The position numbers and the translations under genes are program-made. The notes below the pieces were generated by a model. It did no database searches. It was not told the DNA's origin and saw only the letters and a list, made by a program, of their open reading frames with translations. This document shows, one piece after another, positions 33,271-56,434 of a stretch of 57,445 nt of DNA. How positions within the stretch are numbered: position 1 is the stretch's first letter; each line of letters starts with the position of its first letter. Origin of the DNA: a virus (lineage: Duplodnaviria > Caudoviricetes); IMG/VR virus record IMGVR_UViG_3300033182_001174, positions 1 to 57,445 of that record; one strand, written 5' to 3'.

Positions 33271-33355
33271 GGGAGTGTGGCGGAATCGGTAGACGCACCA
33301 GACTTAAAATCTGTTGATTGTAAAGATCGTGGGGGTTCAAATCCCCCCACTCCCA
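33271..33355 (+). tRNA. tRNA-Leu(UAA)
   Basis: GGGAGTG/CACTCCC acceptor stem, anticodon TAA (33305-33307), long variable arm, GGTTCAAATCC T-arm. Confidence 0.95.
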
Positions 33356-33674: not shown

Positions 33675-33748
33675 GCCAACTTAGCTCAGCTGGATAGAGC
33701 AGGGTTTTTGTAAAGCTCAGGTCATCGGTTCAAGTCCGATAGTTGGCT
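33675..33748 (+). tRNA. tRNA-Thr(UGU)
   Basis: GCCAACT/AGTTGGC acceptor stem, anticodon loop TT-TGT-AA, GGTTCAAGTCC T-arm. Confidence 0.95.
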
Positions 33749-34036: not shown

Positions 34037-37000
34037 ATGGGTCTTTCCAGATTAGATAATTTTCTGAAGTCTTCGCGTGGTACTATTCTTTATGTTGATC
34101 CTAACAGTCTTGATGCGACTGATAGCATAGAAAATAGAGGAAATTCATTAACACGTCCTTTTAAAACTATTCAACGTGCCTTGGTGGAGGCAGCAAGATT
34201 TTCCTATCAGAGAGGACTGAATAATGATAGATTTGGTAAGACGACCGTCTTGCTGTATCCAGGTGACCATGTAGTTGATAATAGACCTGGATGGATACCA
34301 GATGGAGCAAATAATTTTAGATTGAGGGATGGTTCTACCTCTACAGATTTGACTCCATTTGATCTGACTTCTAATTTTGACTTACAAACAACAGATAATG
34401 AACTCTATAAGCTTAATAGTATACATGGTGGAGTAATTCTTCCCAGAGGTACATCTATTGTTGGTCTTGATCTTCGTAAAACAAAGATTAGACCAAAATA
34501 TGTTCCAGACCCAACTAATAACAATATTGAAAGGGGTGCATTATTCCGTATTACTGGTGGATGTTATCTTTGGCAGTTCTCCATGTTTGACGGAGATCCA
34601 AATGGGGTTGTTTATAAAGATTACACTGCAAACACTTTTGTTCCTAACTTTTCTCACCATAAACTCACCTGTTTTGAATATGCAGATGGTCTGAATGGTG
34701 TATCTGTCAACGATGTTTTCCAAACATACACTACGTCCAGAACGGATCTGGATATGTATTATGAGAAAGTTGGAATAGTATATGGTCAATCTTCAGGTCG
34801 TCCCATTGAACCTGATTATCCTTCAACTTCACTAGATATTCAACCTAAGATTGACGAATATCGTATTGTTGGATCAACAGGTGCTAGTGTGGGCATTTCC
34901 AGCATTAAAGCAGGAAATGGTGTCACTCCAACCACCACGATCACAGTAACTACCACTAGTGCTGTTCCTGGATTGGATGTTGATACTCCTTTCCAAGTAA
35001 GTGGAATTAGTGCATCAGGATATGACGGTAAGTTTGTTGTATCTGAAAAAGTAAGTGATACAGAGATTAAATATACAGTTCAAAATGCTCCCGCAGTAGC
35101 ACTTCCAACTGCAACTGGATCTACACTGGCACTTTCATCTGATACTGTAACTGGTGCATCTCCATACATCTTCAACATCTCTCTGAGATCTGTCTTCGGT
35201 ATGTGTGGTATGCACGCTGATGGATCTAAGGCAACTGGATTTAAATCCATGGTTGTTGCCCAGTTTACTGGTATTGGATTACAAAAAGATGATGCTGCAT
35301 TTGTAAAATATAATGAAAATACACCACCAACAGGTAATTATGATGATAATACTGTTTCTGGTAATGAAAACCTTAGTAGCAATTCAAAAGCACGATATAA
35401 ACCATCTTACAGAAACTTCCACGTAAAGGTATCAAATAATTCCTTCATTCAGGCAGTTTCGATCTTTGCTATTGGATTCTCTGAGCATTTTGTAACGGAG
35501 AATGGTGGTGACATTTCACTGACCAACTCAAACTCCAACTTTGGTGCAAATGCTCTAACCTCTGTTGGTTTTAGAACTGATGCATTTTCTCAGGATGATA
35601 TTGGATATATTACACATATTATTCCACCTAAAGAAGTTTCTTTAACAGAATCTGCTATTGAATTTGATGCGATTGACGTAACAAAAACCGACTCTGTTGC
35701 TGGTGTTGGATCAACTGGAAATCTTTATCTCCTCAATAGATCTAATGTGGATCTTCCACCAGAAAACGTAATCGAAGGTTATAGAATTGGTGCAAGATCT
35801 GAAGATAAATTAAAAGTTTTAATTAATGAAGGTGGCACTACAACAGAGCATTTTGCTCGTATTGTCATGCCTGACAATACAGAATCACCTTCTAAGAGTG
35901 CTGAAAAGTCCTTTAAGGTTAATAGAAGTATTGCTGGTATCAATAGTATTGGTCAGTATAGTGATGGCAGTAAGACAAATCAAATAACATTAACTGAGGC
36001 ACATAACTTCTTAAATGGAGAATCTGTCAGAGTCATTGGTGATACTGGACAGATTCCTGATGGATTAACTCCAAATACAATATTCTATGCGATTACAACA
36101 TCAACTGGTATTACTACCAACACAAATATTAAACTTGCAAAAACTTTAAATGATGCAATCAATGATAGTGCAATTAATATTAACGAAAAAGGTGGTGCTT
36201 TAAGAGTTGTTAGTAGAGTTTCTGATAAAAACGCAGGAGATCTTGGTCACCCAATTCAATATGATACTACTAATAGTCAGTGGTATGTTAAAGTTTCTGG
36301 GGCTTCCACTGAAAACTCAATTTATAGAACAATTGTTTCTCTGGGCACGACTGCCCTTGGATCTGCCACACCAAGAACCTTCATCAATAGAAGAACCGAT
36401 GCAAGATCTGGTTTAGATAAAACATATAGAATGAGATATGTCATTCCTTCTAATGTTGGGGGAGCTGTTGGTAGACCTCCTGTTGAAGGATTCATCATTC
36501 AAGAATCAAACACATCTATTGGTTCAACTGATGGTGAGATTCAAACTTACTTCGGTAGTGGGGATCTTGCAAACATTAATCAGCAGAGAAACTTTAGATT
36601 CATTGCTGATGCAAATTGGTCTTCTGCAACAGCTAACATTATTACAGAACTCCCACATAATCTGAAGATTGGTTCTCAAGTTGAAATTAACAATATCATC
36701 AGTACGGGTAATACCGCAGGAGTGGGCAACTCTGGATTCAATGGAATCTTTAATGTCACTGGTATTGCTAGTGCAAAACAATTTAGCGTTGGATTGACAA
36801 CGAATCCTGGAACCTTTGATACTAACACTTCCAATAGAACAACAGATTTACCATATTACAAACGTAAGAAGTATTCTGATACTTATTATGTGTATAGACT
36901 TTCTGAAGCTCAGAAGTATATCACTGGAGAGCAAGATGGTGTATACTACATTAGTGTTCTTAACGCATCAAATACACCAACAGTAGCACCATTTACTGCT

Positions 37001-39949
37001 GACAAGTATTCTCAACCTGTTAAAGAACTTTTCCCACAAATTAGTAGAGACAATCCCGTTTCTGATCCTAAAGCAACAAAATGTTTTGCTGCGTCTAATT
37101 TAATTGGTAAAGTAGATGTAGATGACAATAGAAACAGTGTAACTAGAGAAACTGCTGAAAAAATTCGTATTGATAATGGAACTGGTATCGGAATAACTGA
37201 TATCTTCTCATCTGCTGGTGCTGCACATACAATTCATACTGCATATGATCATGGATTGAATCGACTGACCAAAGTTTCTATTGTTAGTGGTGAAGTAGGT
37301 GCAGGTTATAGTGATGGCACGTATTATAATGCTAGATTGGTTTCTATTGGATCTTCAGTAACAGGAAAACATGCAACTGCAAAAGTTGTAATTGCATCCA
37401 ATCAAGTTAGTAGTGTGACCATCATGGATGGTGGTTCTGCATATGGTATTGGCAATACGATGCATGTTATTGGAGTTACAACAAATGGAACATCTGGGTA
37501 TTCTCCTGCAGTTGTAGAGGTAGATAAGATTTATGATAACGTAGGTGATGTTGTAAGAGTTGTTGGTGTAACTTCGGAATCATATAATGCATATAATCAA
37601 CTTTATAGAATTACTCACATTGGAGTTGGAACTGCAACAGAAATAACTGTTTCAGCCGCAAGTTCAATTTCTAGTGACTCTTTAGTCGGAAATATAACAG
37701 GTGTTGGTGCTACAGTATGTACTGATGCATATGTTTATCTGACCGGTGAATCTCTAGCTGTAAATACGTTCACCTCTGACATTTCTGGTGTCACTACGAT
37801 TACAACAATTAATCGTCATGGTCTTTCTGTTGATAATTCTGTAACGATTACTGGTGCTGGACAAACTCAGTATAATGGATCATTTGTTGTTACAAAAGTC
37901 AACTCACTCACATCGTTTGAAGCAAATCTTGGTGTATCAACTGTTGCACCAACAGCAACTGGAACTATTTTTGCCTTACCAGAAGGTTTATCCTCAAATG
38001 ATGGTAATATTACTGTAGAAAATGAAAACGTTGCTGGTAGAATGGTTCCTACATATGCTGGAATTACAACTACCATCTCTGCTTCTATCGCAAATGCATC
38101 TACAGATTCGGTAAGTTTGCAAAATGTTGCAGATCTTGATGTCAACATCGGAGATTATCTGATGGTTGATGGAGAATTGATGAGAGTCAAGACAACGACC
38201 ACAGGATCAAACCCAATCAAAGTTTTCCGTGGTATTCTTGGAACTAAAGCAACATCTCATGTCATCAATTCTGTTATTAAGAAAGTAAAAGTTGAACCGA
38301 TTGAACTTAGAAGACACTCTATCATTCGTGCTTCGGGTCATACGTTTGAATATGTTGGATTTGGTCCTGGCAACTACTCTACTGCATTCCCAGATAAGCA
38401 AGATCGTGCAATTTCAGTTGATGAAGAACTTTTAGCACAATCTACTAAGAGAGAGGGTGGAATCAACTTCTACACTGGAATGAATGATAAGGGTATTTCA
38501 TACTCTGGTAACAAACGTCTCAGTACCATTACTGGTAGAGAAGAGATCTTTGATACTCCAGTTCAAACAGTAGAGGGTGAAGATATTAGTCAGGTTCCAA
38601 ACTTGAATGTTGTTGAACCTGTCGAAGTTGTTGCAAGTCGTTCAATTAGAGTTGAGGGTGGACCTGACAATAAAGTTATTTCTGAATTTAATGGTCCTTT
38701 AATTGTTAATAACAAGGTTACAGTTAATTCCACCAAAGGACTTGAGTCAAATAACATTTTCCTTCAAGGTGATGCAACAGTTTCTAGAAAGTATACTGTT
38801 GGCATCGCAACTCCTGCTCTTGCAGGCAACCCAGGTGATGTTGTTTATAATGCAAACCCTGCTCAAGGTGGATGGGTTGGTTGGGTGTACACAACTGATG
38901 ATGGTTGGAAACGTTTTGGAAGTGTAAGTGTCAATTCTGGTGCAAATCAATTCATTTTTGACACTGTTGGAATTGCAACTACATCTGCTGGTGAGTGTGC
39001 ATTAAAGGTTGGATCTGGTACATCTCTTGTATGTGCAGACAACGATGGTGTCGGTATTGGTTCAACTGCAAATGGATTTAAACTTCGTGTCGTTGGTGAA
39101 TCTAGATTCAGTGGATCCATTGTCGCAACAGCATTTACTGGTGATGGAAGAGGATTGACAAATCTTGCCACTGACAGCCTTTGGAGTGGGGTGAATGCTG
39201 GACTTGGAACGGGTATCTATCAAAATGACAATCTTCAGGTAGGTATCGGAACAACCAGACCCGATCAAAATGCGGATCTAACTGTTGGTGCTGTCGGTGC
39301 ATCTGGAACCACATTGATTGTAAGATCTGAAGCAAGATTCTCTGGAATTATCACTGCTAATGATGTAACAGTCACTGGATTCAGTACAGTCGTTGGTAAT
39401 TATGATATTCAGAATTCCTCTGGTAAGATCACTGCTGGTATTGTTACTTCAACTACATTGAATGTGGGTGCTGCTGGAACCATAATCACTACAAATGTTG
39501 GATTTGGTTCTGTTGGTATTGGTTCTACTCTTCCAACTGCAATGCTTGACGTTGTTGGACATACAAAACTGAAGACCTACTCTGAAACTGTTACATCACC
39601 ATCAATCGTTGCTAATGAAGTTGAATTAGATCTGTCTGCTGCACAATCATTTACGATCACTGCAGTGAATGACATCAACGCATTTGTTCTGAAAAATCCT
39701 CCTTCAGGATCAACTTCATTTACAGTTAAGATTCTTCAAGATTCAACTGGTGGTCGTTCTGTTGGCATAGATACCTTTAAGGATGGCAGTGGAACAGCAA
39801 TTCCAGTTTATTGGCCTGGTGGTGGTGTCCTACCAATCGTTACTACAACGGCAGATAGGGCAGACATCTATTCGTTCAAGACATTTGATGGTGATGATAT
39901 TACATCCGCTGGTCTGTATGGTGTCGTAGGAGGTCAGAACTTCGCATAA
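34037..39949 (+). CDS. Long tail fibre/virion structural protein
   Basis: MGLSRLDNFLK..ILYVDP..D, PFKTIQRAL; repeated T..H.L..G..V.I.G domains; VGIGT fibre repeats; late promoter at 34002. Confidence 0.8.
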   Translation: MGLSRLDNFLKSSRGTILYVDPNSLDATDSIENRGNSLTRPFKTIQRALVEAARFSYQRGLNNDRFGKTTVLLYPGDHVVDNRPGWIPDGANNFRLRDGSTSTDLTPFDLTSNFDLQTTDNELYKLNSIHGGVILPRGTSIVGLDLRKTKIRPKYVPDPTNNNIERGALFRITGGCYLWQFSMFDGDPNGVVYKDYTANTFVPNFSHHKLTCFEYADGLNGVSVNDVFQTYTTSRTDLDMYYEKVGIVYGQSSGRPIEPDYPSTSLDIQPKIDEYRIVGSTGASVGISSIKAGNGVTPTTTITVTTTSAVPGLDVDTPFQVSGISASGYDGKFVVSEKVSDTEIKYTVQNAPAVALPTATGSTLALSSDTVTGASPYIFNISLRSVFGMCGMHADGSKATGFKSMVVAQFTGIGLQKDDAAFVKYNENTPPTGNYDDNTVSGNENLSSNSKARYKPSYRNFHVKVSNNSFIQAVSIFAIGFSEHFVTENGGDISLTNSNSNFGANALTSVGFRTDAFSQDDIGYITHIIPPKEVSLTESAIEFDAIDVTKTDSVAGVGSTGNLYLLNRSNVDLPPENVIEGYRIGARSEDKLKVLINEGGTTTEHFARIVMPDNTESPSKSAEKSFKVNRSIAGINSIGQYSDGSKTNQITLTEAHNFLNGESVRVIGDTGQIPDGLTPNTIFYAITTSTGITTNTNIKLAKTLNDAINDSAININEKGGALRVVSRVSDKNAGDLGHPIQYDTTNSQWYVKVSGASTENSIYRTIVSLGTTALGSATPRTFINRRTDARSGLDKTYRMRYVIPSNVGGAVGRPPVEGFIIQESNTSIGSTDGEIQTYFGSGDLANINQQRNFRFIADANWSSATANIITELPHNLKIGSQVEINNIISTGNTAGVGNSGFNGIFNVTGIASAKQFSVGLTTNPGTFDTNTSNRTTDLPYYKRKKYSDTYYVYRLSEAQKYITGEQDGVYYISVLNASNTPTVAPFTADKYSQPVKELFPQISRDNPVSDPKATKCFAASNLIGKVDVDDNRNSVTRETAEKIRIDNGTGIGITDIFSSAGAAHTIHTAYDHGLNRLTKVSIVSGEVGAGYSDGTYYNARLVSIGSSVTGKHATAKVVIASNQVSSVTIMDGGSAYGIGNTMHVIGVTTNGTSGYSPAVVEVDKIYDNVGDVVRVVGVTSESYNAYNQLYRITHIGVGTATEITVSAASSISSDSLVGNITGVGATVCTDAYVYLTGESLAVNTFTSDISGVTTITTINRHGLSVDNSVTITGAGQTQYNGSFVVTKVNSLTSFEANLGVSTVAPTATGTIFALPEGLSSNDGNITVENENVAGRMVPTYAGITTTISASIANASTDSVSLQNVADLDVNIGDYLMVDGELMRVKTTTTGSNPIKVFRGILGTKATSHVINSVIKKVKVEPIELRRHSIIRASGHTFEYVGFGPGNYSTAFPDKQDRAISVDEELLAQSTKREGGINFYTGMNDKGISYSGNKRLSTITGREEIFDTPVQTVEGEDISQVPNLNVVEPVEVVASRSIRVEGGPDNKVISEFNGPLIVNNKVTVNSTKGLESNNIFLQGDATVSRKYTVGIATPALAGNPGDVVYNANPAQGGWVGWVYTTDDGWKRFGSVSVNSGANQFIFDTVGIATTSAGECALKVGSGTSLVCADNDGVGIGSTANGFKLRVVGESRFSGSIVATAFTGDGRGLTNLATDSLWSGVNAGLGTGIYQNDNLQVGIGTTRPDQNADLTVGAVGASGTTLIVRSEARFSGIITANDVTVTGFSTVVGNYDIQNSSGKITAGIVTSTTLNVGAAGTIITTNVGFGSVGIGSTLPTAMLDVVGHTKLKTYSETVTSPSIVANEVELDLSAAQSFTITAVNDINAFVLKNPPSGSTSFTVKILQDSTGGRSVGIDTFKDGSGTAIPVYWPGGGVLPIVTTTADRADIYSFKTFDGDDITSAGLYGVVGGQNFA

Positions 39950-47777: not shown

Positions 47778-48206
47778 ATGGCACATTTCGCTCAATTAGA
47801 CGAAAATAATGTCGTTACTCAAGTGATTGTTGTGAGTAACGATGATACATCAGATTCTAATGGTGTAGAAACTGAAAGCATTGGTGTTGCTTTCTGTCAA
47901 AAACTCCTTGGTGCTGATACCAACTGGAAGCAAACCTCATATAACAACAACTTCCGTGTGAGATACGCAGGTATTGGATACAGTTTTTCAGAAGAACTAA
48001 ATGCATTTATTCCACCACGCCCATTTGATAGTTGGGAACTTCAAGAGGAAACCGCAGATTGGCAGTCCCCTCTTGGACCTGCTCCAGAATTAACTCAAGA
48101 ACAGATTGATTCTAGAAGTTTCTACAGATGGGATGAGGATGCATATCAAGCCGATAACACCACCGGATGGGTTCTAGAAACCCCTCCAGCGCCCGAAGAG
48201 GAGTGA
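47778..48206 (+). CDS. Conserved protein accompanying Gly-rich fibres
   Basis: MAHFAQLDENNVVTQVIVV, WKQTSYN..FR.RYAGIGY. Confidence 0.75.
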   Translation: MAHFAQLDENNVVTQVIVVSNDDTSDSNGVETESIGVAFCQKLLGADTNWKQTSYNNNFRVRYAGIGYSFSEELNAFIPPRPFDSWELQEETADWQSPLGPAPELTQEQIDSRSFYRWDEDAYQADNTTGWVLETPPAPEEE

Positions 48207-48279
48207 TAAATAACTATTCCTGAATGGGTAGCACTTTTCAGGTGGGAGGGGCAGAAATGCTCCTTTTTTAGTATAAATA
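48207..48279 (+). ncRNA. Late promoter + small stem-loop RNA + terminator + second late promoter (cassette 1)
   Basis: TAAATA; CCTGAA-TGGGTAGCACTT-TTCAGG; GGAGGGGCA-GAAA-TGCTCCTTT and T-tract; TATAAATA. Confidence 0.65.
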
Positions 48280-48304
48280 TATCTGTCACCTGTTTAGAGT
48301 AGAA

Positions 48305-48985
48305 ATGTATTACGTTTATTCGTATTTAAGAGAAGATTATAGTCCTTATTATATTGGAAAAGGTTCTGGCAGAAGAGCATATACAAAAGGACTAAAGGAA
48401 GTTAAACCACCAAAAGACAAATCAAGAGTTAGAATACTCAAAGCAGATTTAGCAGAAAAAGAGGCATTTCTGTTAGAGAAACTTTATATTCTAATGTTCG
48501 GTAGAATTGATTTAGGTACTGGTATTTTAAGAAACAAAAGTGATGGTGGTGATGGTGCTTCTGGTGCAGTAAGAAGTGAAGAGACCAAAGAAAAAATCCG
48601 TCAAGCAAATCTTGGTAAGCAGAGACCTAAAGAAGTTGGAGAAAAGATATCAAAGGCATTATCTGGTAGAAAACTATCAGAAGAGATGAAAGTGAAATTA
48701 AGTGCAATTCGTAAAGGTAGAAAATGTACAGAGGAACATAAGAAAAATGTGAGTGAAGCAAAGAAAGGATTTAAGCATACTGAAGAAGCAAAAAAATTAA
48801 TGGGCATCAATCAACGTAAAAAAGCAAAACCCCATAAACTTATTTTTGTTGATGGTAGAGAATTAATTGTTGATAATATTATGGAATGGTGTGAAACTAA
48901 TCCTTATTCTGATAGTTGTGTTTATCGTGTTAAGAATAGGGGTATTCCTCATAAAGACATTATAAAAGTAGAACTTGTAAATTGA
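48305..48985 (+). mobile_element. GIY-YIG-like (Seg-type) homing endonuclease with NUMOD3 repeats
   Basis: YYVYSY..PYYIGKG, LRNKSDGG, EETKEKIR / HTEEAKK repeats. Confidence 0.85.
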
Positions 48986-49010
48986 CACTCTCTCATAACT
49001 CATATATAAT
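48982..49010 (+). promoter_or_regulatory. Sigma70-type promoter
   Basis: Perfect TTGACA-17 bp-TATAAT. Confidence 0.88.
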
Positions 49011-49040
49011 ATCGTTGAACACATAATAGGAGATTGAACT

Positions 49041-49661
49041 TTGGCTTTTCAGAGCATATGGTTTTTCAGTGACCTCCCAGAAGATATTGTAGATATCATC
49101 GAGAGGGACGTATCTGAAACTTTTGATGAACAAATGGCAGACTCCAGGTTGCACGGAGATGCCCTAAACAAAGATAAAAGAAACTCACAGAATGCTTGGA
49201 TTCCAACGACTCACTGGGTTGGTGGTTTCTTGTGGCACTATATTCAACGTGCAAATCGTGAGAACTTCCTTTATGATCTGCGGTGTATTGATGGAGAATC
49301 AATGCAATACACCCGATATGGTGAAGGTCAGTTCTACGGATGGCATAATGATGCTGGACTTGCGACACAATACAAACCAGTAGCAGTTGGTAATCGTGTT
49401 GATGGTCTGGGACAGGACTTTGTGAATGAGAATATTGAGATGGTTCGTAAACTGTCTTTTGCGATGCAACTCTCTGACCCCGATGATTATGAAGGTGGTA
49501 ACCTGCAACTTCTTGATGAAGCAGGTAACTCTTATATTGCTCCCCGTAAACGTGGTACGATTGTATTGTTTGACTCCCGCACACAACACCGAGTTCTCAA
49601 GGTAACAAAAGGAACCCGTAAGAGTATTGTTGGATGGGTAGTAGGAAAAAGATGGTCTTAA
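49041..49661 (+). CDS. 2OG-Fe(II) oxygenase (PKHD-type)
   Basis: YGWHND, RKLS, YEGG, FDSRTQHRV..VTKGTRKSIVGW. Confidence 0.92.
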   Translation: MAFQSIWFFSDLPEDIVDIIERDVSETFDEQMADSRLHGDALNKDKRNSQNAWIPTTHWVGGFLWHYIQRANRENFLYDLRCIDGESMQYTRYGEGQFYGWHNDAGLATQYKPVAVGNRVDGLGQDFVNENIEMVRKLSFAMQLSDPDDYEGGNLQLLDEAGNSYIAPRKRGTIVLFDSRTQHRVLKVTKGTRKSIVGWVVGKRWS

Positions 49662-49709
49662 ACTACGGTGGAGGTAATATAAATAGTTCCACCGTTGTCC
49701 AATAAAAAC

Positions 49710-50375
49710 ATGGAAAATCATTATGTTTATTATTCTTATGAGGAGTTTGGAAGAGGTTACATAGGTTGTAGAACTTGTGAGGCATCTCCAGAAAAAGATA
49801 GTTATATGGGTTCATTTCATGATGAATCTTTTAATCCTTCTCATAAAATAATTCTTAAAACTTTCCCCACAAGGAAAGAAGCTCTTCAAGCAGAAGTTAA
49901 TCTCCATGAGTTTTATCAGGTAGATAAAAATCCACATTTTGCAAACAAATCAAAGCAAAAAACAACAGGATTTTACTACTCAGAGAAAAAGTTTGGTAAA
50001 GAAAATCCATTTTATGGAAAATCTCACTCAGAAGAAACAAAAAAAGTTATTCGCCAACATCAAATAGAAAACAATGGATATGTAAAGAATCGTAGATCTT
50101 ATGAAGGGGAAAACAACCCATTTTATGGAAAAACCCACTCAGAAGAAACAAAAGAACTTCTTAAAGAAAAATCTACTAAAACTTGGGAAGATAAACCTCA
50201 TCCTTGGATAGGTAGAAAACATAGTGAAGAATCTAAAGCAAAGTTTAGAGAAAATAACAAGGGAGAAAAGAATCCAAACTTCGGCAAAAAACATAGTGAG
50301 GAAACACTTATCAAAATGAAAGAAGCAAGAAAACTTTGGTGGGAAAAGAAACGCCAACAACAATCGGAGGCATAA
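49710..50375 (+). mobile_element. GIY-YIG-like homing endonuclease with NUMOD3 repeats
   Basis: YVYYS..RGYIG, YMGS; NPFYGKSHSEET repeats. Confidence 0.85.
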
Positions 50376-50378
50376 ATT

Positions 50379-51116
50379 ATGGCAGAACAAATGACAGAAC
50401 TGCAACTGATGATGCAGGAGAAGACCAATACAGGAACTGCCTGGACACGCAATGATAGTTTTGAAAAGAATGGATATCTTGTAGTTAAAAACCTCTGGGA
50501 TCCTGAAGAACTTTATCATCCAGTCCCCGAAGAGAAAGGTCAGTACAACTATTGGGATAAGAACCCTGAACACTTTAATCATGTTCCCGTTGAGCAACAG
50601 GTAGAAGGTTCTACTTCACGATATTGGCACCCACAATATCGTGCGATTCACTCTGGTATTCGTATGAAACTAGAAGAACATCTGGGTCGTAAACTTTATA
50701 ATACCTATTACTATGATAGGTTCTACTATCCTGGACAGGAATTGACGAAACATGCTGATCGTGATGCATGTGAGATTTCTGTGACTGTTCATGTCAGCAC
50801 CAATCTAGAAGGTAAAGATAAAGATTGGCCGATCTGGATTAAAACTCCCGATACTTACACTGATAAGAAGAAGACAACTGTCCTTGTTCCTGGTGAGAAT
50901 CGTTCGGTCGTTCTTCAACCTGGTGATGGCATGATCTACAAAGGATGTGAAAGACCACACTGGCGTGATAAGATGCCTGGATCTCAAAAGAAGAAGAACA
51001 AGAAACTGTTTGGTAAGAAAACTTCTGATACTGAACTTTATTATCATCAGATCTTTTTTCATTATTGCTTGCAAGACGGTCAAAGAGCACACTGTGCATG
51101 GGATAGAGCACGATAA
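50379..51116 (+). CDS. 2OG-Fe(II) oxygenase-like protein
   Basis: LTKHADRDACEISVT, PGDGMIYKGC..PHWR, QIFFHY. Confidence 0.82.
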   Translation: MAEQMTELQLMMQEKTNTGTAWTRNDSFEKNGYLVVKNLWDPEELYHPVPEEKGQYNYWDKNPEHFNHVPVEQQVEGSTSRYWHPQYRAIHSGIRMKLEEHLGRKLYNTYYYDRFYYPGQELTKHADRDACEISVTVHVSTNLEGKDKDWPIWIKTPDTYTDKKKTTVLVPGENRSVVLQPGDGMIYKGCERPHWRDKMPGSQKKKNKKLFGKKTSDTELYYHQIFFHYCLQDGQRAHCAWDRAR

Positions 51117-51211
51117 ATACTAATACCTGATTGGGTTGCACTTTTCAGGAGGAGGGTGAAAGTCCCTCCTTTTTAATGTGATATAATAAATAATAATGCA
51201 ACCCAAATCAG
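51114..51211 (+). ncRNA. Late promoter + antisense stem-loop RNA + terminator + second late promoter/leader (cassette 2)
   Basis: CTGATTGGGTTGCA (51127-51140) complementary to leader TGCAACCCAAATCAG (51197-51211). Confidence 0.7.
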
Positions 51212-51218
51212 TAAAGAA

Positions 51219-51800
51219 ATGTATTACACTTACGCTTATCTGCGTGAAGACGGAACTCCTTATTATATTGGAAAAGGTAGTGGGGATAGAATTAATAAAC
51301 CTCACGGTAGACCTTGCAGCAAACCACCATTAAATAGAAGAATAAAGTTAAAAACAAATCTCACCGAAAAAGAAGCATTTAGACACGAAATCTATATGAT
51401 TGCTGTTTTCGGAAGAAAAGATTTAGGAACGGGTATTCTTTACAATAAAAGTAATGGTGGCGAAGGAAACTCTGGTCTTATAATGTCGCAGGAAAGTAGA
51501 GAAAAGATGAGTAGGGTTGGTAAAGGAAAAAAGAAACCACCAGGACATGGTGAGGCAGTCAGTAGGGCAAGAAAAGGAAAACCAAGTCCTTTAAGAAACA
51601 GAACATTAACAGAAGAACATAAGAGAAAAATTGGTAACTCTCATGCCAAAACATTTCATTTTATAAACCCAGAGGGAGAACTGATAGAAATAAAGGATTT
51701 GCAAAATTACTGCAAAGATAATAAACTATCAAGAGGTTATTTTTATAAACTTATGAGAGGAGAAAGAAATGAGTATCGTGGTTGGAGATTACCGGAATGA
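51219..51800 (+). mobile_element. GIY-YIG-like homing endonuclease
   Basis: YYTYAYLREDGTPYYIGKG, LYNKSNGG. Confidence 0.85.
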
Positions 51801-52348
51801 AAGCACCACTTTTTGAATATCCATCATATCAATATCAAATAGACGATTGGTCGTTTAAACGCAAAGGACTCCTCAAAAGAATCAACTCTCAGAAGTTTGT
51901 AAGAACCACTCTGCAAACTTTTGAGACAGATCGTCAAACAAATCGCAAAAGTTATCTTCATTACTTCCAAGACCTCATTCGCCCACAACTCTTTGAGTTT
52001 TGTCAAGAAGCCCAAGTTACTTGTAGTATGACAGATTGTTGGGCAGTTCGTTATCAGAAGGGTGACCAACAGACCATACATAACCACAGAAGTTGGGGAT
52101 TTACTGGTATTCTTTATGTTGACTTTGATCCTAAAGTTCATACTCCTACCTGTTTTGTAGCACCATGGCAAGATCCTAGAAGTGATACAACATCTCTTGC
52201 ATATCCACAGAATGTAAAAGAAGGAACAATCTTTATCTCTCCATCTTATACATTACATTTTGTGCATCCCAATCAAGTAAGAAAATATAGAACGATTATA
52301 TCTTTTGATCTTCTTCCCAAACTTCCAGATCACCAGTCAGTGGACTGA
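51797..52348 (+). CDS. 2OG-Fe(II) oxygenase-like protein
   Basis: W...YQKGD..HNH, GILY, PS..LHFV.PN...R.IISF. Confidence 0.82.
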   Translation: MKAPLFEYPSYQYQIDDWSFKRKGLLKRINSQKFVRTTLQTFETDRQTNRKSYLHYFQDLIRPQLFEFCQEAQVTCSMTDCWAVRYQKGDQQTIHNHRSWGFTGILYVDFDPKVHTPTCFVAPWQDPRSDTTSLAYPQNVKEGTIFISPSYTLHFVHPNQVRKYRTIISFDLLPKLPDHQSVD

Positions 52349-52361
52349 GTGGTCTTTTTTT
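52327..52361 (+). terminator. Rho-independent terminator
   Basis: AGATCACCAGTC-AGTG-GACTGAGTGGTCT followed by a T-tract. Confidence 0.65.
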
Positions 52362-52392
52362 ATGTGCTAAATAACTAGAAAGAAGTTGTGCA

Positions 52393-52797
52393 ATGACGAG
52401 AGCACGGAGTTTAGCAAGATTAGCTAATTCAAATGCATTTACTGTTAGTACTGACTTAAATGTCGGTGTTAATTCAACTTCTCCTGTTGAAAAACTGAAC
52501 GTCGTTGGTGTTGTCAGTGCAACTAGTTTTTATGGTGATGGTAGTGAACTGAGTGGAGTTACTGGACTGGGAACTGCATTATCCAATTCTGGTCCTACAA
52601 ATTTCTTTTACTACGTAAACAATGATCTCAATATCACAGAAACCACCACACTTGATGTGCCTAGCAGTGCAACATTAAGTGCCGATGGGTTCCGTGTTGC
52701 ATATACAAACTATTCAAATATCATCGTTGATGATAGTTATGACTTAATTATTTCTGATGGTGATGAATTAGTTCCTGATGTTTTATCTTTATCATAA
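52393..52797 (+). CDS. Fibre-associated structural protein
   Basis: Late promoter at 52368; VSATSFYGDGSELSG motif. Confidence 0.7.
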   Translation: MTRARSLARLANSNAFTVSTDLNVGVNSTSPVEKLNVVGVVSATSFYGDGSELSGVTGLGTALSNSGPTNFFYYVNNDLNITETTTLDVPSSATLSADGFRVAYTNYSNIIVDDSYDLIISDGDELVPDVLSLS

Positions 52798-52827
52798 TCT
52801 ATAAATAAGTAAAAAGATCCTAGAGTA

Positions 52828-53643
52828 ATGTCAAGAATTAGAGCCGACAAATTTGTAGATAGGGCAGCGACTGGTGCTCCAGAGGTTACCTATGGTATTG
52901 AAGTTCCTGTTGGATATGGAGTCACTGGTGATGGTGGTATTAACATTGCTGGTGTTGTCACTGCTGCAAGTTTTTCAGGTGCTGCCACTGGATTATCTGG
53001 CACTCCAGACATCACTGTTAGAAATATTGTTGGTGTTGCTGCTACTTTTAGTGGAACTGTTTCTTATGAGGATGTAACTAATATTGATGCAGTTGGAATC
53101 GTTACCTCACAATCTGGAGTTAGAGTTGTCGGTGGTGGATTATCAGTCACCAGTGGGGCATCAAGATTTAGAGGTGTTATTGAAAACGTTGCTGTTGCAT
53201 CAACCCACTTAAGTGGTGCAGGAATGGTGCTTGAAATGGATGTTGCAGAAGCAACTACATTTACATTTGGGAATACTGGTGGTAATATCGGTATTATTTC
53301 ATTCAGAAATATGCCTGCAGATGAGGCAAATGGAACAACAATTACTCTAATTCATACGCAAAATTCTTCAACACCTTCGGGAGTCGGCAACACAACTGCT
53401 GCGACAGGTATTGGAACATATATTCACATTTCACCTACTGTGGGTGGAACAATTCAGACAGGAATTGACACAACAGGTAATATTGGATCTGCGTCTACTG
53501 TAACATTATCTGAAACTGCATCAGATAAGGATTTTGTTTCATTCTTTATTCATTACACTGGTGGTGGTGCAGGAGTTGCAACATGTTTCCAAACTTACGT
53601 CACTAAGAACGGTAACTTCCGTCAGGGCAACATAGGTGTTTGA
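52828..53643 (+). CDS. Tail fibre protein
   Basis: MSRIRAD, SYEDVTNIDAVGIVT; paralogous to 44692-45477. Confidence 0.7.
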   Translation: MSRIRADKFVDRAATGAPEVTYGIEVPVGYGVTGDGGINIAGVVTAASFSGAATGLSGTPDITVRNIVGVAATFSGTVSYEDVTNIDAVGIVTSQSGVRVVGGGLSVTSGASRFRGVIENVAVASTHLSGAGMVLEMDVAEATTFTFGNTGGNIGIISFRNMPADEANGTTITLIHTQNSSTPSGVGNTTAATGIGTYIHISPTVGGTIQTGIDTTGNIGSASTVTLSETASDKDFVSFFIHYTGGGAGVATCFQTYVTKNGNFRQGNIGV

Positions 53644-53658
53644 TAGGAGGTAACTAGG

Positions 53659-54762
53659 ATGAGTATTTTTAAAGATTTTTTTGTAAAACAAAAACCAGTA
53701 TTTACTGGACTTAAATTTGGTTTTGGTGCTGGTGGTGGTGGTGCGGGAGGTCCTGCACCAATCAGTGCTTCAGGTGGTAACATTGCTGATGCACTAGAAC
53801 CAGGAAATGGATATAAGTACCATACATTTGGAACACCAGGCACTTTTACTGTTACTGGTGGACCAAACACAATTGAGGTATTAGTTGTTGCTGGTGGAGG
53901 TGGTGGATCAAAAGCTAATAATATCGCTTCTGGTGGTGCTGGTGCTGGTGGTGTTGTTCATGCTACATCCTACGTTGTAACAGCAGGAACGTATGATGTA
54001 TCAGTTGGTGATGGTGGGGCAGGTGGTGATGGCACCACCACTGCTGGATCCAATGGAGGGGATTCATATTTTGGAGCAGCACCAGTAAGAATAACTGCAA
54101 AAGGTGGTGGTGGTACTGGACTTTGGCCTGGAACCGGTGCGAGCACTGGTGGATCAGGTGGTGGTGGAACAGGAACCACTGCAACTTACCCATGGCCAGC
54201 AGCAGTAATTGCTGGAAAAGCAGCAACCCAAGGGGATGAAACTCACCCAGGAGCACCAGGAACTATCACTAATTACGGAAACCCAGGTGGAAATGGTGGT
54301 GGTGGTGATGCTGCTGGTGGTGGAGCACCCGATGCTTATCTGTCTGGTGGTGCCGGTGGTGGTGCTGGTACTGCTGGTGATAATGGTGGGGGCGACGGCA
54401 CCAGACCTAACGGTGGTGATGGACAACCATTCCCACAATTTGCATATCCATTATGTTTCCCTTCACCATATCTTCCAGGATTTGCTACACCAAGTACTCC
54501 AATTGCTGGATATACAGCTTCACCTACTTCTGATCATTATGGTGGTGGTGGAGGTGGCGGTAAGCACCGTGCTGGCAGCGGAAATGCTCAAACAGGCACT
54601 GGTGCGGGTGGCATCGGCGGTGGTGGCGGTGGAGGTAATGGTCAACCAACTCATTCTTTTAGTGGATTAGATTATCTTGGTGGTGGTGCAGGAGACTCAG
54701 CAGGATATGAGACCACCGCACGCACTGGTGGAAAAGGTGTTGTTATTGTAAGATACACATAG
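53659..54762 (+). CDS. Glycine-rich fibre/receptor-binding protein
   Basis: ASGG..YKYHTF..VVAGGGGG..GGKGVVIVRY. Confidence 0.78.
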   Translation: MSIFKDFFVKQKPVFTGLKFGFGAGGGGAGGPAPISASGGNIADALEPGNGYKYHTFGTPGTFTVTGGPNTIEVLVVAGGGGGSKANNIASGGAGAGGVVHATSYVVTAGTYDVSVGDGGAGGDGTTTAGSNGGDSYFGAAPVRITAKGGGGTGLWPGTGASTGGSGGGGTGTTATYPWPAAVIAGKAATQGDETHPGAPGTITNYGNPGGNGGGGDAAGGGAPDAYLSGGAGGGAGTAGDNGGGDGTRPNGGDGQPFPQFAYPLCFPSPYLPGFATPSTPIAGYTASPTSDHYGGGGGGGKHRAGSGNAQTGTGAGGIGGGGGGGNGQPTHSFSGLDYLGGGAGDSAGYETTARTGGKGVVIVRYT

Positions 54763-54781
54763 TAATTAAATTATTTTTACA

Positions 54782-55288
54782 ATGGAATTGAATATTATTG
54801 ATGATTTTTTATCACATGAAGATCATCGTCAACTAAAAAATTTAATAGTGTTTAACCAAAACTTCCCTTTGCATTTTCAGAGAGAAGTTTCTGGTGAGAA
54901 GGTAAAACGTGAAAATTGGGATTGGTATGCTACTCATACCTTTTATCACCAAGATCATCCATGCAGCCCATATGCGAATGACATTTGTAATTACTTTATT
55001 CCTAAGTTTGTGAAAATGGATATTTTTAAATCTCTGATGAGAATTAGAGTTAATTTTTATCCATACACCAATGAAATAAAAGAACATGAACCACATATTG
55101 ACTACAAGTTTTCACACCATGCTGCAATTTATTGTTTAAATACTTGTGATGGTTTTACAAGGATAGGTAGAGAAAAAGTTAAGAGTGTTGCTAACAGAAT
55201 GTATTTCTTTGATGGAAGTGTAGAACACAATTCATCAACAACATCAGATAATGCGGGAAGATACAATATAAACTTTAACTTCTTGTAG
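54782..55288 (+). CDS. 2OG-Fe(II) oxygenase-like protein
   Basis: IIDDFL, HID, NTCDG, NRM.FFDG..EHNS, RYNINFN. Confidence 0.82.
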   Translation: MELNIIDDFLSHEDHRQLKNLIVFNQNFPLHFQREVSGEKVKRENWDWYATHTFYHQDHPCSPYANDICNYFIPKFVKMDIFKSLMRIRVNFYPYTNEIKEHEPHIDYKFSHHAAIYCLNTCDGFTRIGREKVKSVANRMYFFDGSVEHNSSTTSDNAGRYNINFNFL

Positions 55289-55368
55289 ACACTCCATAAA
55301 CCGTCCACTGAGCCTCACAGAACCCTCTGTGAGGTTTTATAGTATCTGCATACAACACACAGGGGGGT

Positions 55369-55467
55369 ATGACTGCCACTCACAAGTTAATCTTCATTGC
55401 ATCGTTCTTCTGGTTCATGAACTGGGCTCAAAGAATTTGTTATCTTGTATTTTCAAATGTTCTCTAA
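55369..55467 (+). CDS. Small hydrophobic peptide
   Basis: 32 aa MTATHKLIFIASFFWFMNW...; GGGGGG RBS and TATAGT -10 at 55338. Confidence 0.55.
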   Translation: MTATHKLIFIASFFWFMNWAQRICYLVFSNVL

Positions 55468-55551
55468 ATACAGATGCTTGACTGTGGTTATTCAAGCAAG
55501 GGGGGGTGGAAACACCCTCCACCATAAATAATACATACCACAGTCAAAGCA
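55465..55551 (+). ncRNA. Late promoter + antisense stem-loop RNA + hairpin + second late promoter/leader (cassette 3)
   Basis: TGCTTGACTGTGGT (55475-55488) complementary to leader ACCACAGTCAAAGCA. Confidence 0.7.
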
Positions 55552-55553
55552 GT

Positions 55554-56120
55554 ATGAATAACTATTATACTTACGCTTATTTGCGTGAGGATGGAACTCC
55601 TTATTACATCGGCAAGGGTGTCGGAAGGAGAGTCCATCATAAAAATCACTGTTTACCAATTCCCCCTAAAGATAGGATATTGATGCTTAAGCAGAACCTT
55701 TCAGAGGATGATGCGTTCAAACATGAAATCTATATGATTAGTGTGCTTGGACGTAAAGATAAGGGAACAGGTATGCTAAGAAATCTTACAGATGGTGGAG
55801 AAGGAACATCCGGCAACATACTGTCAGATGAAACTAAAAGAAAAATAGGAACAGCAAACAGTGGACAGAACAACGGAATGTATGGAAAGTCCGGCGAGAG
55901 CAACCCCTTCTATGGGAAACATCACACAGATGATTTCAAACAGCAAAAAAGTAGGGAGGTAAAAGAGCACTGGAAAAAGAACCCTCACCCCTGGATAGGT
56001 AGAAAGCACTCCCCAGAAACCATTGAAAAAATTAGACAGACAAAACTTGGTAGAAAACTCTCCCCAGAACATAAGGAGAAAATAAGACAGTCTATGTTGA
56101 AACGCAATGCTCTATCTTGA
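55554..56120 (+). mobile_element. GIY-YIG-like homing endonuclease with NUMOD3 repeats
   Basis: YYTYAYLREDGTPYYIGKG, LRNLTDGGEG, NPFYGKHH, GRKHSPET. Confidence 0.85.
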
Positions 56121-56173
56121 CATCACCGGAAAGGCGTCTAAAAGACGCTGTAAGGACATCATTCCCTAATCGC

Positions 56174-56202
56174 TTGACAAGTTCTAAAAAACCCTGTATA
56201 AT
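56174..56202 (+). promoter_or_regulatory. Sigma70-type promoter
   Basis: Perfect TTGACA-17 bp-TATAAT. Confidence 0.88.
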
Positions 56203-56227
56203 TACCTTTGTGGAGGTTGATCAAACC

Positions 56228-56434
56228 ATGGCTATTAAAACTAAAAAAGAACTCATTAATGTCTCTCCAAAAACTAAACGTGCCCGAAACAGATTCTGTA
56301 ATCAAATGGATTCTTTACACGCATGTGTAGTAGAACAACGTAAAGATGGAAAACTATTTCTTGCTTCTATCTCTGGTAAATACTTCTTTTGGATGAATGA
56401 ATCATCCGACGATCACTGGGAGATTGTAAAATGA
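56228..56434 (+). CDS. Conserved cyanophage hypothetical protein
   Basis: GGAGG RBS; ARNRF.NQMD.LHAC.VEQ. Confidence 0.75.
   Translation: MAIKTKKELINVSPKTKRARNRFCNQMDSLHACVVEQRKDGKLFLASISGKYFFWMNESSDDHWEIVK

What the first reader, a model, noticed from the sequence alone, without database searches (positions are those of the whole stretch)
55465..55556. Second sRNA-leader pair with a different sequence but identical geometry
Seen: TAAATA, TGCTTGA-CTGTGGTTAT-TCAAGCA, a GAAA-capped hairpin, TAAATA, then ACCACAGTCAAAGCA-GT-ATG. Again 14 nt of complementarity with a single bulged A, although the sequence differs completely from the 51114 cassette while the nuclease N-termini are nearly identical. 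Inference: sRNA and target co-vary, giving orthogonal specificity groups that let related elements coexist.
Basis: partly seen in the sequence, partly recalled or inferred. Interest (0 to 1): 0.75.

Follow-up and report, generated by a model that had tools for sequence, protein, structure and literature searches.

The report
Fold-back leader controlling a cyanophage homing endonuclease
Upstream of a phage homing-endonuclease gene lies a conserved RNA switch: a stretch before a late promoter pairs with the gene's leader and hides its start codon, a known way for such selfish nucleases to be made only late in infection.

Summary
At 55463-55556 lie TAAATA, a local hairpin, a GAAA-capped GC hairpin, a second TAAATA, and a leader that pairs with the first hairpin's 5' half (14 bp, one bulged A), ending 2 nt before the ATG of a GIY-YIG-like homing endonuclease. 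The same layout precedes two other nuclease genes in the window, at least 47 further distinct metagenomic cassettes, and six genes of the cultured phage S-SRM01. Arm pairing covaries strongly.

Best reading (0.6): a cis fold-back leader of the kind known from T4 I-TevI/segB and Aeh1 mobE. Transcripts carrying both arms bury the start region (about 13 kcal/mol to open). Transcripts begun at the internal late promoter lack the 5' arm and leave it open (about 1).

The upstream [A/C]TAAATA is invariant, matches this phage's own promoter-like motif, keeps fixed spacing, and is followed in 45 of 50 cassettes by hairpin plus terminator. This particular cassette, however, lacks the terminator's T run.

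Selection for "orthogonal groups" is not supported: cassettes sharing a genome cross-pair no less than random pairs. A new member of a known kind, and a well-supported RNA family absent from Rfam.

The parts
55463..55470 (+). P1: TCTAAATA, the upstream late-promoter-like motif ([A/C]TAAATA). Its TAA (55465-55467) also ends the small ORF 55369-55467.
   Evidence: TAAATA is invariant in the 45-sequence alignment. The base before it is A or C in 45 of 46 and in 43 of 43 pattern-scan cassettes. The same 8-mer types lie 15-40 nt upstream of ordinary genes in this window.
55475..55488 (+). 5' arm (anti-leader) TGCTTGACTGTGGT
   Evidence: pairs with 55537-55551, 14 bp plus one bulged A.
55475..55498 (+). 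Local hairpin SL1 (TGCTTGA / loop CTGTGGTTAT / TCAAGCA). It is the alternative structure of the 5' arm and puts the variable part in the loop.
   Evidence: RNA 55475-55524 folds into SL1 plus the GC hairpin, -23.9 kcal/mol. Family-wide, local MFE is -6.5 against -3.1 for shuffles, and own halves pair at -7.1 against -3.9 for swapped halves.
55501..55520 (+). GC hairpin with GAAA loop. It sits where relatives have an intrinsic terminator, but here no T run follows.
   Evidence: hairpin -11.4 kcal/mol, with 1 T in the next 8 nt. 45 of 50 relatives have at least 5 T. This helix covaries in 6 of 6 pairs.
55523..55530 (+). P2: CATAAATA, T4-type late-promoter-like motif between the arms
   Evidence: TATAAATA in 46 of 51 relatives, AATAAATA in 4, CATAAATA only here. 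It lies 23 nt before the ATG.
55537..55551 (+). 3' arm (leader) ACCACAGTCAAAGCA, ending 2 nt before the ATG
55554..56120 (+). Homing endonuclease gene, 188 aa: GIY-YIG-like N-terminal domain plus NUMOD3 repeats
   Evidence: NUMOD3 at E 5.5e-18. PHROG 314 'homing endonuclease' at E 9.4e-16. Predicted fold: the top 9 PDB matches are all the UvrC GIY-YIG domain, E 0.03-0.19. Pfam's GIY-YIG models are not matched.
55427..56170 (+). Approximate extent of the insertion relative to Synechococcus phage Bellamy, which has the flanking genes but no endonuclease
   Evidence: homology to Bellamy gp57 ends near 55426 and resumes at the TTGACA promoter near 56173.
51112..51221 (+). Sibling cassette 1. P1 GATAAATA 51112-51119; 5' arm 51127-51140; hairpin plus T run about 51150-51174; P2 AATAAATA 51185-51192; 3' arm 51197-51211; ATG 51219.
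   Evidence: (model R1, 67.5 bits).
48205..48307 (+). Sibling cassette 0. P1 GATAAATA; 5' arm 48219-48233; terminator; P2 TATAAATA 48272-48279; 3' arm 48284-48299; ATG 48305. The arms pair weakly, with several G-U pairs.
   Evidence: 79.1 bits; long-range stem in the MFE, -32.2, z -2.56; opening cost only 6.7 against 3.8.

Best explanation
The element is the leader of a portable homing-endonuclease (HEG) gene cassette inserted in a T4-like cyanomyovirus. It works mainly in cis.

Its order is: [A/C]TAAATA (P1), 5' arm folded as a local hairpin, GC hairpin (an intrinsic terminator in most relatives), T4-type late promoter (P2), 3' arm, ATG. Any transcript that enters from upstream and passes the GC hairpin carries both arms. 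These form a 14-bp stem that buries the translation-initiation region, so the nuclease is not made. Transcripts that start at P2 late in infection begin at the 3' arm, lack the 5' arm, and leave the start region open.

The terminator and the fold-back are two layers that insulate the nuclease gene from outside transcription, and P2 gives late-only expression.

Shown: the sequence anatomy, the covariation, the predicted energetics, and the motif statistics. Inferred: promoter activity, start sites, termination, and the effect on translation.
For: (1) Structure. The MFE of RNA 55455-55575 is the long-range stem around the GC hairpin (-38.4 kcal/mol, z -5.5). The same holds for the 51112 and 48205 cassettes.

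(2) Switch energetics. Opening -18..+6 costs 12.7 kcal/mol in a read-through RNA and 1.0 in an RNA started after P2. Over 50 cassettes the means are 13.7 and 3.2 (one row, L079, has a mutated P2 and was mis-assigned). The P2-started RNA 55536-55600 leaves leader and AUG unpaired.

(3) Family and covariation. Of 63 distinct upstream regions of relatives, 51 have a leader/upstream duplex of -18 kcal/mol or better. Self pairing averages -22.4 and swapped pairing -11.5, and the own partner is best for 41 of 51. On the structure-guided alignment of 50 distinct cassettes, 94.1% of cells pair (shuffles 72.8%). The covariation score is 0.657 (shuffles 0.249; slid registers 0.07-0.18). 16 of 19 pairs show double changes, and 0 of 500 shuffles reach any of these measures.

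(4) RNA level, + strand. In the long-range helices G-U/U-G occurs 36 times and A-C/C-A 11 times. The + strand pairs better in 37 of 51 cassettes.

(5) Late promoter. P2 is TATAAATA in 46 of 51. In the window [A/C]TAAATA occurs 26 times on the + strand and twice on the - strand, and 17 of the 26 lie 15-40 nt upstream of an ORF of at least 50 aa (4.1% expected). NATAAATA is the reported cyanomyovirus late promoter (PMC2984593, passage read).

(6) Precedent. RBS-sequestering hairpins with an internal late promoter are described for I-TevI, I-TevII, I-TevIII, segB and Aeh1 mobE (PMC2988022, passages read). Hairpins with TATAAATA and two mutually complementary motifs were seen before 15 of 16 free-standing endonuclease genes in marine metagenomes (PMC2677866, passages read).

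(7) The halves are never apart. 0 of 43 true cassettes in a scan for the 5' unit alone lacked the cognate leader. A second class of 6 cassettes keeps arms and P2 without P1.

(8) The GC hairpin of this cassette lacks a T run, so read-through, the situation the fold-back acts on, is likely here.
Against: No transcript ends were measured. The only RNA data were assembled metatranscriptome contigs at low depth.

The cis model gives no role to three conserved features. P1 is invariant, yet it supplies the upstream gene's stop codon in only 14 of 39 loci. The P1-to-arm spacing is gap-free in 49 of 50 cassettes. The local hairpin SL1 competes with the long-range stem.

In 45 of 50 relatives a good terminator sits between the arms, so most incoming transcripts may never contain the 3' arm. 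No clear Shine-Dalgarno sequence is present; the 3' arm is only purine-rich.

The start-site distance from TATAAATA that I used (about 6 nt) is recalled from T4, not measured. A simple terminator scan did not list the cassette hairpins.
Confidence: 0.6

Rival explanations
1. Trans-acting anti-leader sRNA. P1 is a late promoter that makes a 50-65-nt RNA consisting of SL1, an A-rich linker and a terminator hairpin. The loop and 5' half of SL1 pair with the 5' UTR of the P2 mRNA and throttle nuclease translation late in infection.
For: P1's TAAATA is invariant. The base before it is A or C in 45 of 46 and 43 of 43 cassettes, while flanks differ right up to it. The same 8-mer types (GATAAATA, TCTAAATA, GCTAAATA) lie 19-35 nt before ordinary genes of this phage. 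The 4-nt spacing to the arm is gap-free in 49 of 50 although the spacer sequence varies. P1 is the upstream gene's stop codon in only 14 of 39 loci. SL1 is conserved with class-level covariation and exposes the variable part in its loop. 45 of 50 relatives have a hairpin (mean -10.4 kcal/mol) plus at least 5 T in 8 nt. RNA 55475-55524 folds into two clean hairpins.
Against: This cassette has no T run. A second class of 6 cassettes has arms and P2 but no P1. No orphan 5' unit was found (0 of 43), and no distant partner for the 10 arm-less leaders. There is no extra orthogonality among co-resident cassettes (p 0.32). Any RNA that reads through pairs in cis anyway. No RNA of this size has been observed.
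Confidence: 0.3
2. The long-range stem is a processing or stability element, for example a double-strand-specific RNase site that cuts read-through RNA between the upstream gene and the nuclease gene, rather than a translational block.
For: The stem is conserved, imperfect (one bulged A) and encloses a hairpin. RNase E processing is reported for T4 segB and segG and for Aeh1 mobE transcripts (PMC2988022, passage read).
Against: The stem is only 14-18 bp. Its 3' strand always ends 0-8 nt before the ATG. That placement is what a translational block predicts and a cleavage site does not need.
Confidence: 0.05
3. DNA-level inverted repeat: an operator pair for autorepression by the nuclease (as I-TevI binds an operator over its late promoter), or a cruciform.
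For: The inverted repeat flanks P2. I-TevI autorepression at its late promoter is documented (PMC2988022, passage read).
Against: G-U is favoured over A-C, 36 to 11, in the long-range helices. The arms differ completely between nucleases with near-identical N-termini, and the same leader type serves unrelated HNH and GIY-YIG genes. The bulged A is asymmetric.
Confidence: 0.03

Closest known systems
Translational control hairpins of T4 I-TevI, I-TevII, I-TevIII and segB, and of Aeh1 mobE (Gott/Shub; Gibb and Edgell; reviewed in PMC2988022, passages read; the two primary mobE papers are not held)
   Same: A homing-endonuclease gene in a T4-like phage. An RNA structure buries the initiation region on long transcripts. 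A TATAAATA-type late promoter is placed so that late transcripts lack the 5' strand. Terminators act as a further layer.
   Different: Here the two strands lie about 50 nt apart. The loop holds a complete hairpin (a terminator in most relatives) plus the promoter. The 5' strand has its own local hairpin. A second promoter-like motif precedes it. No obvious Shine-Dalgarno sequence. Nothing is tested experimentally.
Hairpins upstream of free-standing endonuclease genes in 'fractured genes' of marine metagenomes (Dassa et al. 2009, PMC2677866, passages read; figure and supplement not seen)
   Same: Marine phage-like DNA. Hairpin just upstream of the start codon in 15 of 16 genes, 10 with TATAAATA. 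[quoted passage not shown] The same hairpin type is shared by different endonuclease families.
   Different: That text mentions no terminator (0 occurrences of the word) and no upstream TAAATA. Whether their motifs are this same family could not be checked, because Figure 4 and Supplementary Figure S4 were not available. Here the cassettes sit between genes, not inside split genes.
Mobile-element control of transposase translation: IS10 fold-back inhibition and RNA-OUT (recalled, no call); IS200 with 5'UTR structure, sRNA art200 and Hfq (PMC4513863, listing and start of abstract only)
   Same: A selfish nuclease or transposase gene is shielded from outside transcription by mRNA structure that hides the ribosome site. 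In those elements a short complementary RNA acts as well.
   Different: Those antisense RNAs are transcribed from the opposite strand of the same DNA. Here the complementary segment is a separate, same-strand copy upstream. The elements are transposons, not phage HEGs.
PeSL composite terminator/early-promoter motifs of T4-like phages (PMC2839356, listing only; PMC4122927, passages read)
   Same: A compact terminator-plus-promoter module that travels with variable genes in T4-like genomes.
   Different: PeSLs carry an early sigma-70-type promoter and have no leader complementarity. Here the promoter is of the late type and is bracketed by pairing arms.

Membership tests
T4-type fold-back control of a homing endonuclease (I-TevI / segB / mobE kind) | A stable RNA structure includes the translation-initiation region | tested here: met
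   the 3' arm ends 2 nt before the ATG, and opening -18..+6 costs 12.7 kcal/mol on read-through RNA.
T4-type fold-back control of a homing endonuclease (I-TevI / segB / mobE kind) | A late promoter is placed so that late transcripts lack the 5' strand | tested here: inconclusive
   The motif CATAAATA lies between the arms, is TATAAATA in 46 of 51 relatives, and is gene-proximal and strand-biased in this phage. Promoter activity and start site were not measured.
T4-type fold-back control of a homing endonuclease (I-TevI / segB / mobE kind) | The controlled gene is a homing endonuclease of a T4-like phage | tested here: met
   NUMOD3, PHROG 314, GIY-YIG-like fold. The gene is absent from the otherwise collinear site in phage Bellamy. 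Nearest records are Kyanoviridae.
T4-type fold-back control of a homing endonuclease (I-TevI / segB / mobE kind) | Translation is repressed on early/middle transcripts and active on late ones | not testable with these tools
   Needs reporter assays or ribosome profiling during infection.
Trans-acting antisense sRNA with its target | Own promoter for the short RNA | tested here: inconclusive
   [A/C]TAAATA is invariant and promoter-like. No transcript data.
Trans-acting antisense sRNA with its target | A defined 3' end (intrinsic terminator) before the target gene | tested here: not met
   For this cassette, 1 T in the 8 nt after the hairpin. The feature is met in 45 of 50 relatives.
Trans-acting antisense sRNA with its target | The short RNA accumulates and represses in trans | not testable with these tools
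   Only assembled RNA contigs were available.
   Co-resident cross pairs average -9.6 (n 40) and other cross pairs -10.1 (n 2716), p 0.32. 2 of 40 against 144 of 2716 reach -17 or better.
Any Rfam family | Match to a curated covariance model | tested here: not met
   At gathering threshold, only two tRNAs in the whole window. In E-value mode on 48150-55650, only a chance miRNA hit elsewhere.
GIY-YIG homing endonuclease | GIY-YIG catalytic domain | tested here: inconclusive
   Pfam GIY-YIG models are not matched (best LEM-3_GIY-YIG, E 1.3), and there is no PDB sequence hit. The predicted fold's top 9 matches are UvrC GIY-YIG domains (E 0.03-0.19, none at or below 0.001). The N-terminal YxY...YIGKG...R...E pattern is invariant in 60 relatives; reading it as the GIY-YIG motif is from recall.

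The most novel reading that the evidence does not exclude
Each cassette is a self-contained, sequence-addressed throttle. The upstream [A/C]TAAATA is a real late promoter that makes a 50-65-nt hairpin-plus-terminator RNA. The loop of that RNA carries a private 'address' complementary to the 5' UTR of its own nuclease mRNA. A phage carrying several homing endonucleases would then run several independent sRNA/leader pairs alongside the cis fold-back. This would be a same-strand, dual-late-promoter sRNA system that travels with HEGs of unrelated families.
Probability: 0.3. Interest if true: 0.7.

Novelty: new member of a known kind. Interest (0 to 1): 0.42.

Why it matters
The finding ties a raw-sequence curiosity to a well-precedented way of keeping selfish nucleases quiet until late infection. 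It also shows that in cyanophages this control comes as a portable module shared by GIY-YIG and HNH endonuclease genes: 50 distinct cassettes in the structure-guided alignment, and six in one cultured phage.

The module is a strongly covarying RNA structure that Rfam does not hold. A model of it would help annotate homing endonucleases, late promoters and insertion boundaries in cyanophage metagenomes.

The conserved upstream promoter-like motif and the local hairpin are not explained by the classical cis model. Whether phage HEGs also use a dedicated small RNA is therefore a testable question in S-SRM01.

Tried and rejected
RNA evidence. One search found three metatranscriptome runs with small shares, all kept as assembled contigs. 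Laid on 54800-56400, they gave seven short pieces at depth 4-19. One 216-nt contig (98% alike) covers 55528-55743, beginning inside P2 and not reaching the arms. Contig ends are not transcript ends, so I draw nothing from it or from the uncovered 5' unit.

Databases. Rfam at both thresholds gave nothing. A PDB sequence search with the nuclease gave no hit. Pfam's GIY-YIG models gave no significant hit.

The simple terminator scan listed none of the cassette hairpins, probably because G-T pairs let its stem run into the T tract. I therefore scored hairpin energy and T content myself.

Halves apart. A search for the two halves apart found none. The 25 incomplete pattern matches are, by eye, unrelated chance matches without GC hairpin, T run or TATAAATA. 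The 10 arm-less leaders have no convincing partner within their loci (one search was spoiled by counting the leader's own antisense strand).

ORF 1759 ranked 3rd in the in-window control, but its region folds no better than shuffles (z -1.57).

Stop-codon explanation for P1. Rejected as sufficient: it holds in only 14 of 39 loci.

Not available. The primary mobE papers are not held. One literature search was too loose and returned nothing useful. I did not examine whether the window encodes gp55, gp33 or gp45; the record is a 28%-complete fragment.

Full report
WHAT IS THERE

The window is a fragment of a T4-like cyanomyovirus. Its nearest records are Synechococcus phages Bellamy and S-SM2, and the record is the whole 57,445-base contig, about 28% complete.

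At the reported place the sequence reads as follows:
- TCTAAATA at 55463-55470. Its TAA ends a small ORF, 55369-55467.
- A 4-nt spacer.
- TGCTTGA-CTGTGGTTAT-TCAAGCA at 55475-55498.
- An 8-bp GC hairpin with a GAAA loop at 55501-55520.
- CATAAATA at 55523-55530.
- ACCACAGTCAAAGCA at 55537-55551, then GT, then ATG at 55554.

The gene that follows (188 aa) carries NUMOD3 repeats and matches PHROG 314 'homing endonuclease'. Its predicted N-terminal fold (mean pLDDT 77.7) finds the UvrC GIY-YIG domain as its top nine PDB matches, though only at E 0.03-0.19. Pfam's GIY-YIG models are not matched. Phage Bellamy has the flanking genes but not this gene. About 745 bp (roughly 55427-56170) are an insertion between its gp57 and gp58.

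IS IT MORE THAN CHANCE?

Yes. The 121-nt RNA folds to -38.4 kcal/mol, against -20.6 +/- 3.2 for shuffles (0 of 200 as good). The minimum-energy structure is the two arms paired in cis around the GC hairpin. Among 90 ORF starts in the window, the three cassette genes rank 1st, 2nd and 4th for leader-to-upstream complementarity. The 3rd-ranked place is not a structured element.

A LARGE FAMILY

I collected 80 loci encoding relatives of the nuclease from IMG/VR. Of 63 distinct upstream regions, 59 have TAAATA within 45 nt of the ATG, and 51 have a leader/upstream duplex of -18 kcal/mol or better.

Forty-five of these, including the three in the window, share one layout:
- [A/C]TAAATA (P1), then 4 nt.
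- The 5' arm, which also forms a local hairpin with its variable part in the loop.
- An A-rich linker.
- A GC hairpin with a T run.
- TATAAATA (P2, 46 of 51), then about 4 nt.
- The 3' arm, then 0-8 nt, then the ATG.

Six belong to a second layout, in which the 5' arm sits inside a larger GC hairpin and P1 is absent. Ten distinct regions have no arms at all.

A covariance model built from the 45 finds 50 distinct full-length copies in 46 sources. All are on the gene strand, and there are only three in the window (48205, 51112, 55463).

On that alignment:
- 94.1% of pair cells are standard pairs (shuffles 72.8%).
- The covariation score is 0.657 (shuffles 0.249; slid registers 0.07-0.18).
- 16 of 19 pairs show changes on both sides.
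- No shuffle of 500 reaches any of these measures.

Swapping partners between cassettes weakens pairing from -22.4 to -11.5 kcal/mol. G-U outnumbers A-C by 36 to 11 in the long-range helices and 34 to 8 in the hairpin. The structure is therefore RNA, read from the gene strand.

The same leader precedes other nuclease types: an HNH gene (L054), a second GIY-YIG subfamily (L029), and several others in a pattern scan. The cultured freshwater phage S-SRM01 has six copies, each before a different nuclease-like ORF.

HOW IT MOST LIKELY WORKS

The arrangement is the one described for T4 I-TevI, I-TevII, I-TevIII, segB and Aeh1 mobE. A structure hides the ribosome site on long early or middle transcripts, and a late promoter inside the structure gives transcripts that cannot form it (PMC2988022, passages read).

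Dassa et al. saw hairpins before 15 of 16 free-standing endonuclease genes in marine metagenomes. Ten held TATAAATA, and two conserved motifs complemented each other on the stem (PMC2677866, passages read; figure and supplement not seen).

In this phage [A/C]TAAATA behaves as a promoter motif. It occurs 26 times on the gene strand against twice on the other. Seventeen of the 26 lie 15-40 nt upstream of an ORF, where 4.1% is expected. The reported cyanomyovirus late promoter is NATAAATA (PMC2984593, passage read).

Computed accessibility fits a switch. Opening -18..+6 costs 12.7 kcal/mol on read-through RNA and 1.0 on RNA begun after P2. The family means are 13.7 and 3.2, and the P2-started RNA leaves the AUG free. 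I took the start site as about 6 nt after TATAAATA, from recall of T4.

In 45 of 50 cassettes the GC hairpin is followed by at least 5 T in 8 nt, making it a terminator that adds a second barrier. The cassette under study is the only one with 2 or fewer T. Read-through, and hence the fold-back, should matter most here.

WHAT THE CIS MODEL LEAVES UNEXPLAINED

- P1 is as invariant as P2. The base before it is A or C in 45 of 46 and 43 of 43 cassettes, and flanks differ right up to it.
- P1 is the stop codon of the upstream gene in only 14 of 39 loci.
- Its 4-nt distance to the arm is gap-free in 49 of 50, although the spacer letters vary.
- P1's 8-mers are the same kinds that precede ordinary genes of this phage.
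- The local hairpin is conserved: -6.5 against -3.1 kcal/mol for shuffles, and own halves pair at -7.1 against -3.9 for swapped halves.

Promoter, loop-presenting hairpin, A-rich linker and terminator are the anatomy of a small-RNA gene.

Points against the trans reading:
- This cassette has no T run.
- The second layout has no P1.
- The halves are never found apart (0 of 43; no distant partners).
- Any spanning RNA pairs in cis regardless.

'ORTHOGONAL GROUPS'

Co-resident cassettes do differ. In the window, cross-pairing is -7.9 to -15.1 against -17.9 to -21.6 self. In S-SRM01 it is -3.7 to -17.3 against -20.7 to -27.0 self. But they differ no more than random pairs from different genomes: mean -9.6 (n 40) against -10.1 (n 2716), p 0.32. 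Arm diversity is adequately explained by drift with compensatory change. I see no sign of selection for coexistence.

VERDICT

The element is a new member of a known kind of homing-endonuclease control. It belongs to a well-supported RNA family that Rfam lacks, and it carries an open, testable question about a possible companion small RNA.

Noticed in passing
window 48305-56120: Four homing-endonuclease genes lie within 8 kb: 48305-48985, 49710-50375, 51219-51800 and 55554-56120. They are interleaved with 2OG-Fe(II) oxygenase genes (49041-49661 and 51782-52348 match Pfam). ORFs 50379-51116 and 54782-55288 have no Pfam hit.
   Followed up: partly
window 49665-49695: The fourth endonuclease gene (a different GIY-YIG subfamily, MENHYVYYSYEE...) has a simpler hairpin, ACGGTGGA/TCCACCGT, with TATAAATA (49678-49685) in its loop. 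The MFE is -19.6, z -2.66. The 3' strand ends 14 nt before the ATG, so it does not cover the start codon.
   Followed up: partly
window 48982-49010 and 56174-56202: Two perfect sigma-70-type promoters (TTGACA, 17 nt, TATAAT; 12 of 12) sit at or just after endonuclease gene ends. The first overlaps the TGA stop of the 48305 gene. Many related loci likewise end the nuclease ORF in ...TTGA followed by a TATAAT-like box. This suggests the cassettes carry or abut the early promoter of the next gene.
   Followed up: partly
window, whole: [A/C]TAAATA is strongly strand-biased (26 on +, 2 on -). It lies 19-35 nt before many ORFs, including the two giant ORFs 24181-30030 and 34037-39949 (GATAAATA). This is a usable late-promoter map for this phage.
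   Followed up: partly
window 55369-55467 vs L001 3012-3131: The small ORF upstream (32 aa) is the homologue of Bellamy gp57. Its C-terminal part is replaced by sequence that came with the insertion.
   Followed up: no
L031, L050, L055, L063, L070, L076 (about 100 nt before the match at 1201): A second leader layout: the 5' arm (e.g. GTAAGTCTTGGCG) lies inside a larger GC hairpin, followed by TATAAATA or AATAAATA and a 3' arm that runs right up to the ATG. There is no upstream TAAATA.
   Followed up: partly
window 48205-48307: Cassette 0 keeps a 5' arm close to that of cassette 1, but its 3' arm has diverged. The stem relies on several G-U pairs, and the predicted block is weak (opening cost 6.7 against 3.8 kcal/mol). 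It may be a decaying or recombinant cassette.
   Followed up: partly
window 53659-54762: A 367-aa ORF extremely rich in glycine (long GGxGG runs), next to likely structural genes.
   Followed up: no
window 33271-33355 and 33675-33748: Two tRNA genes, the only Rfam matches at gathering threshold.
   Followed up: no
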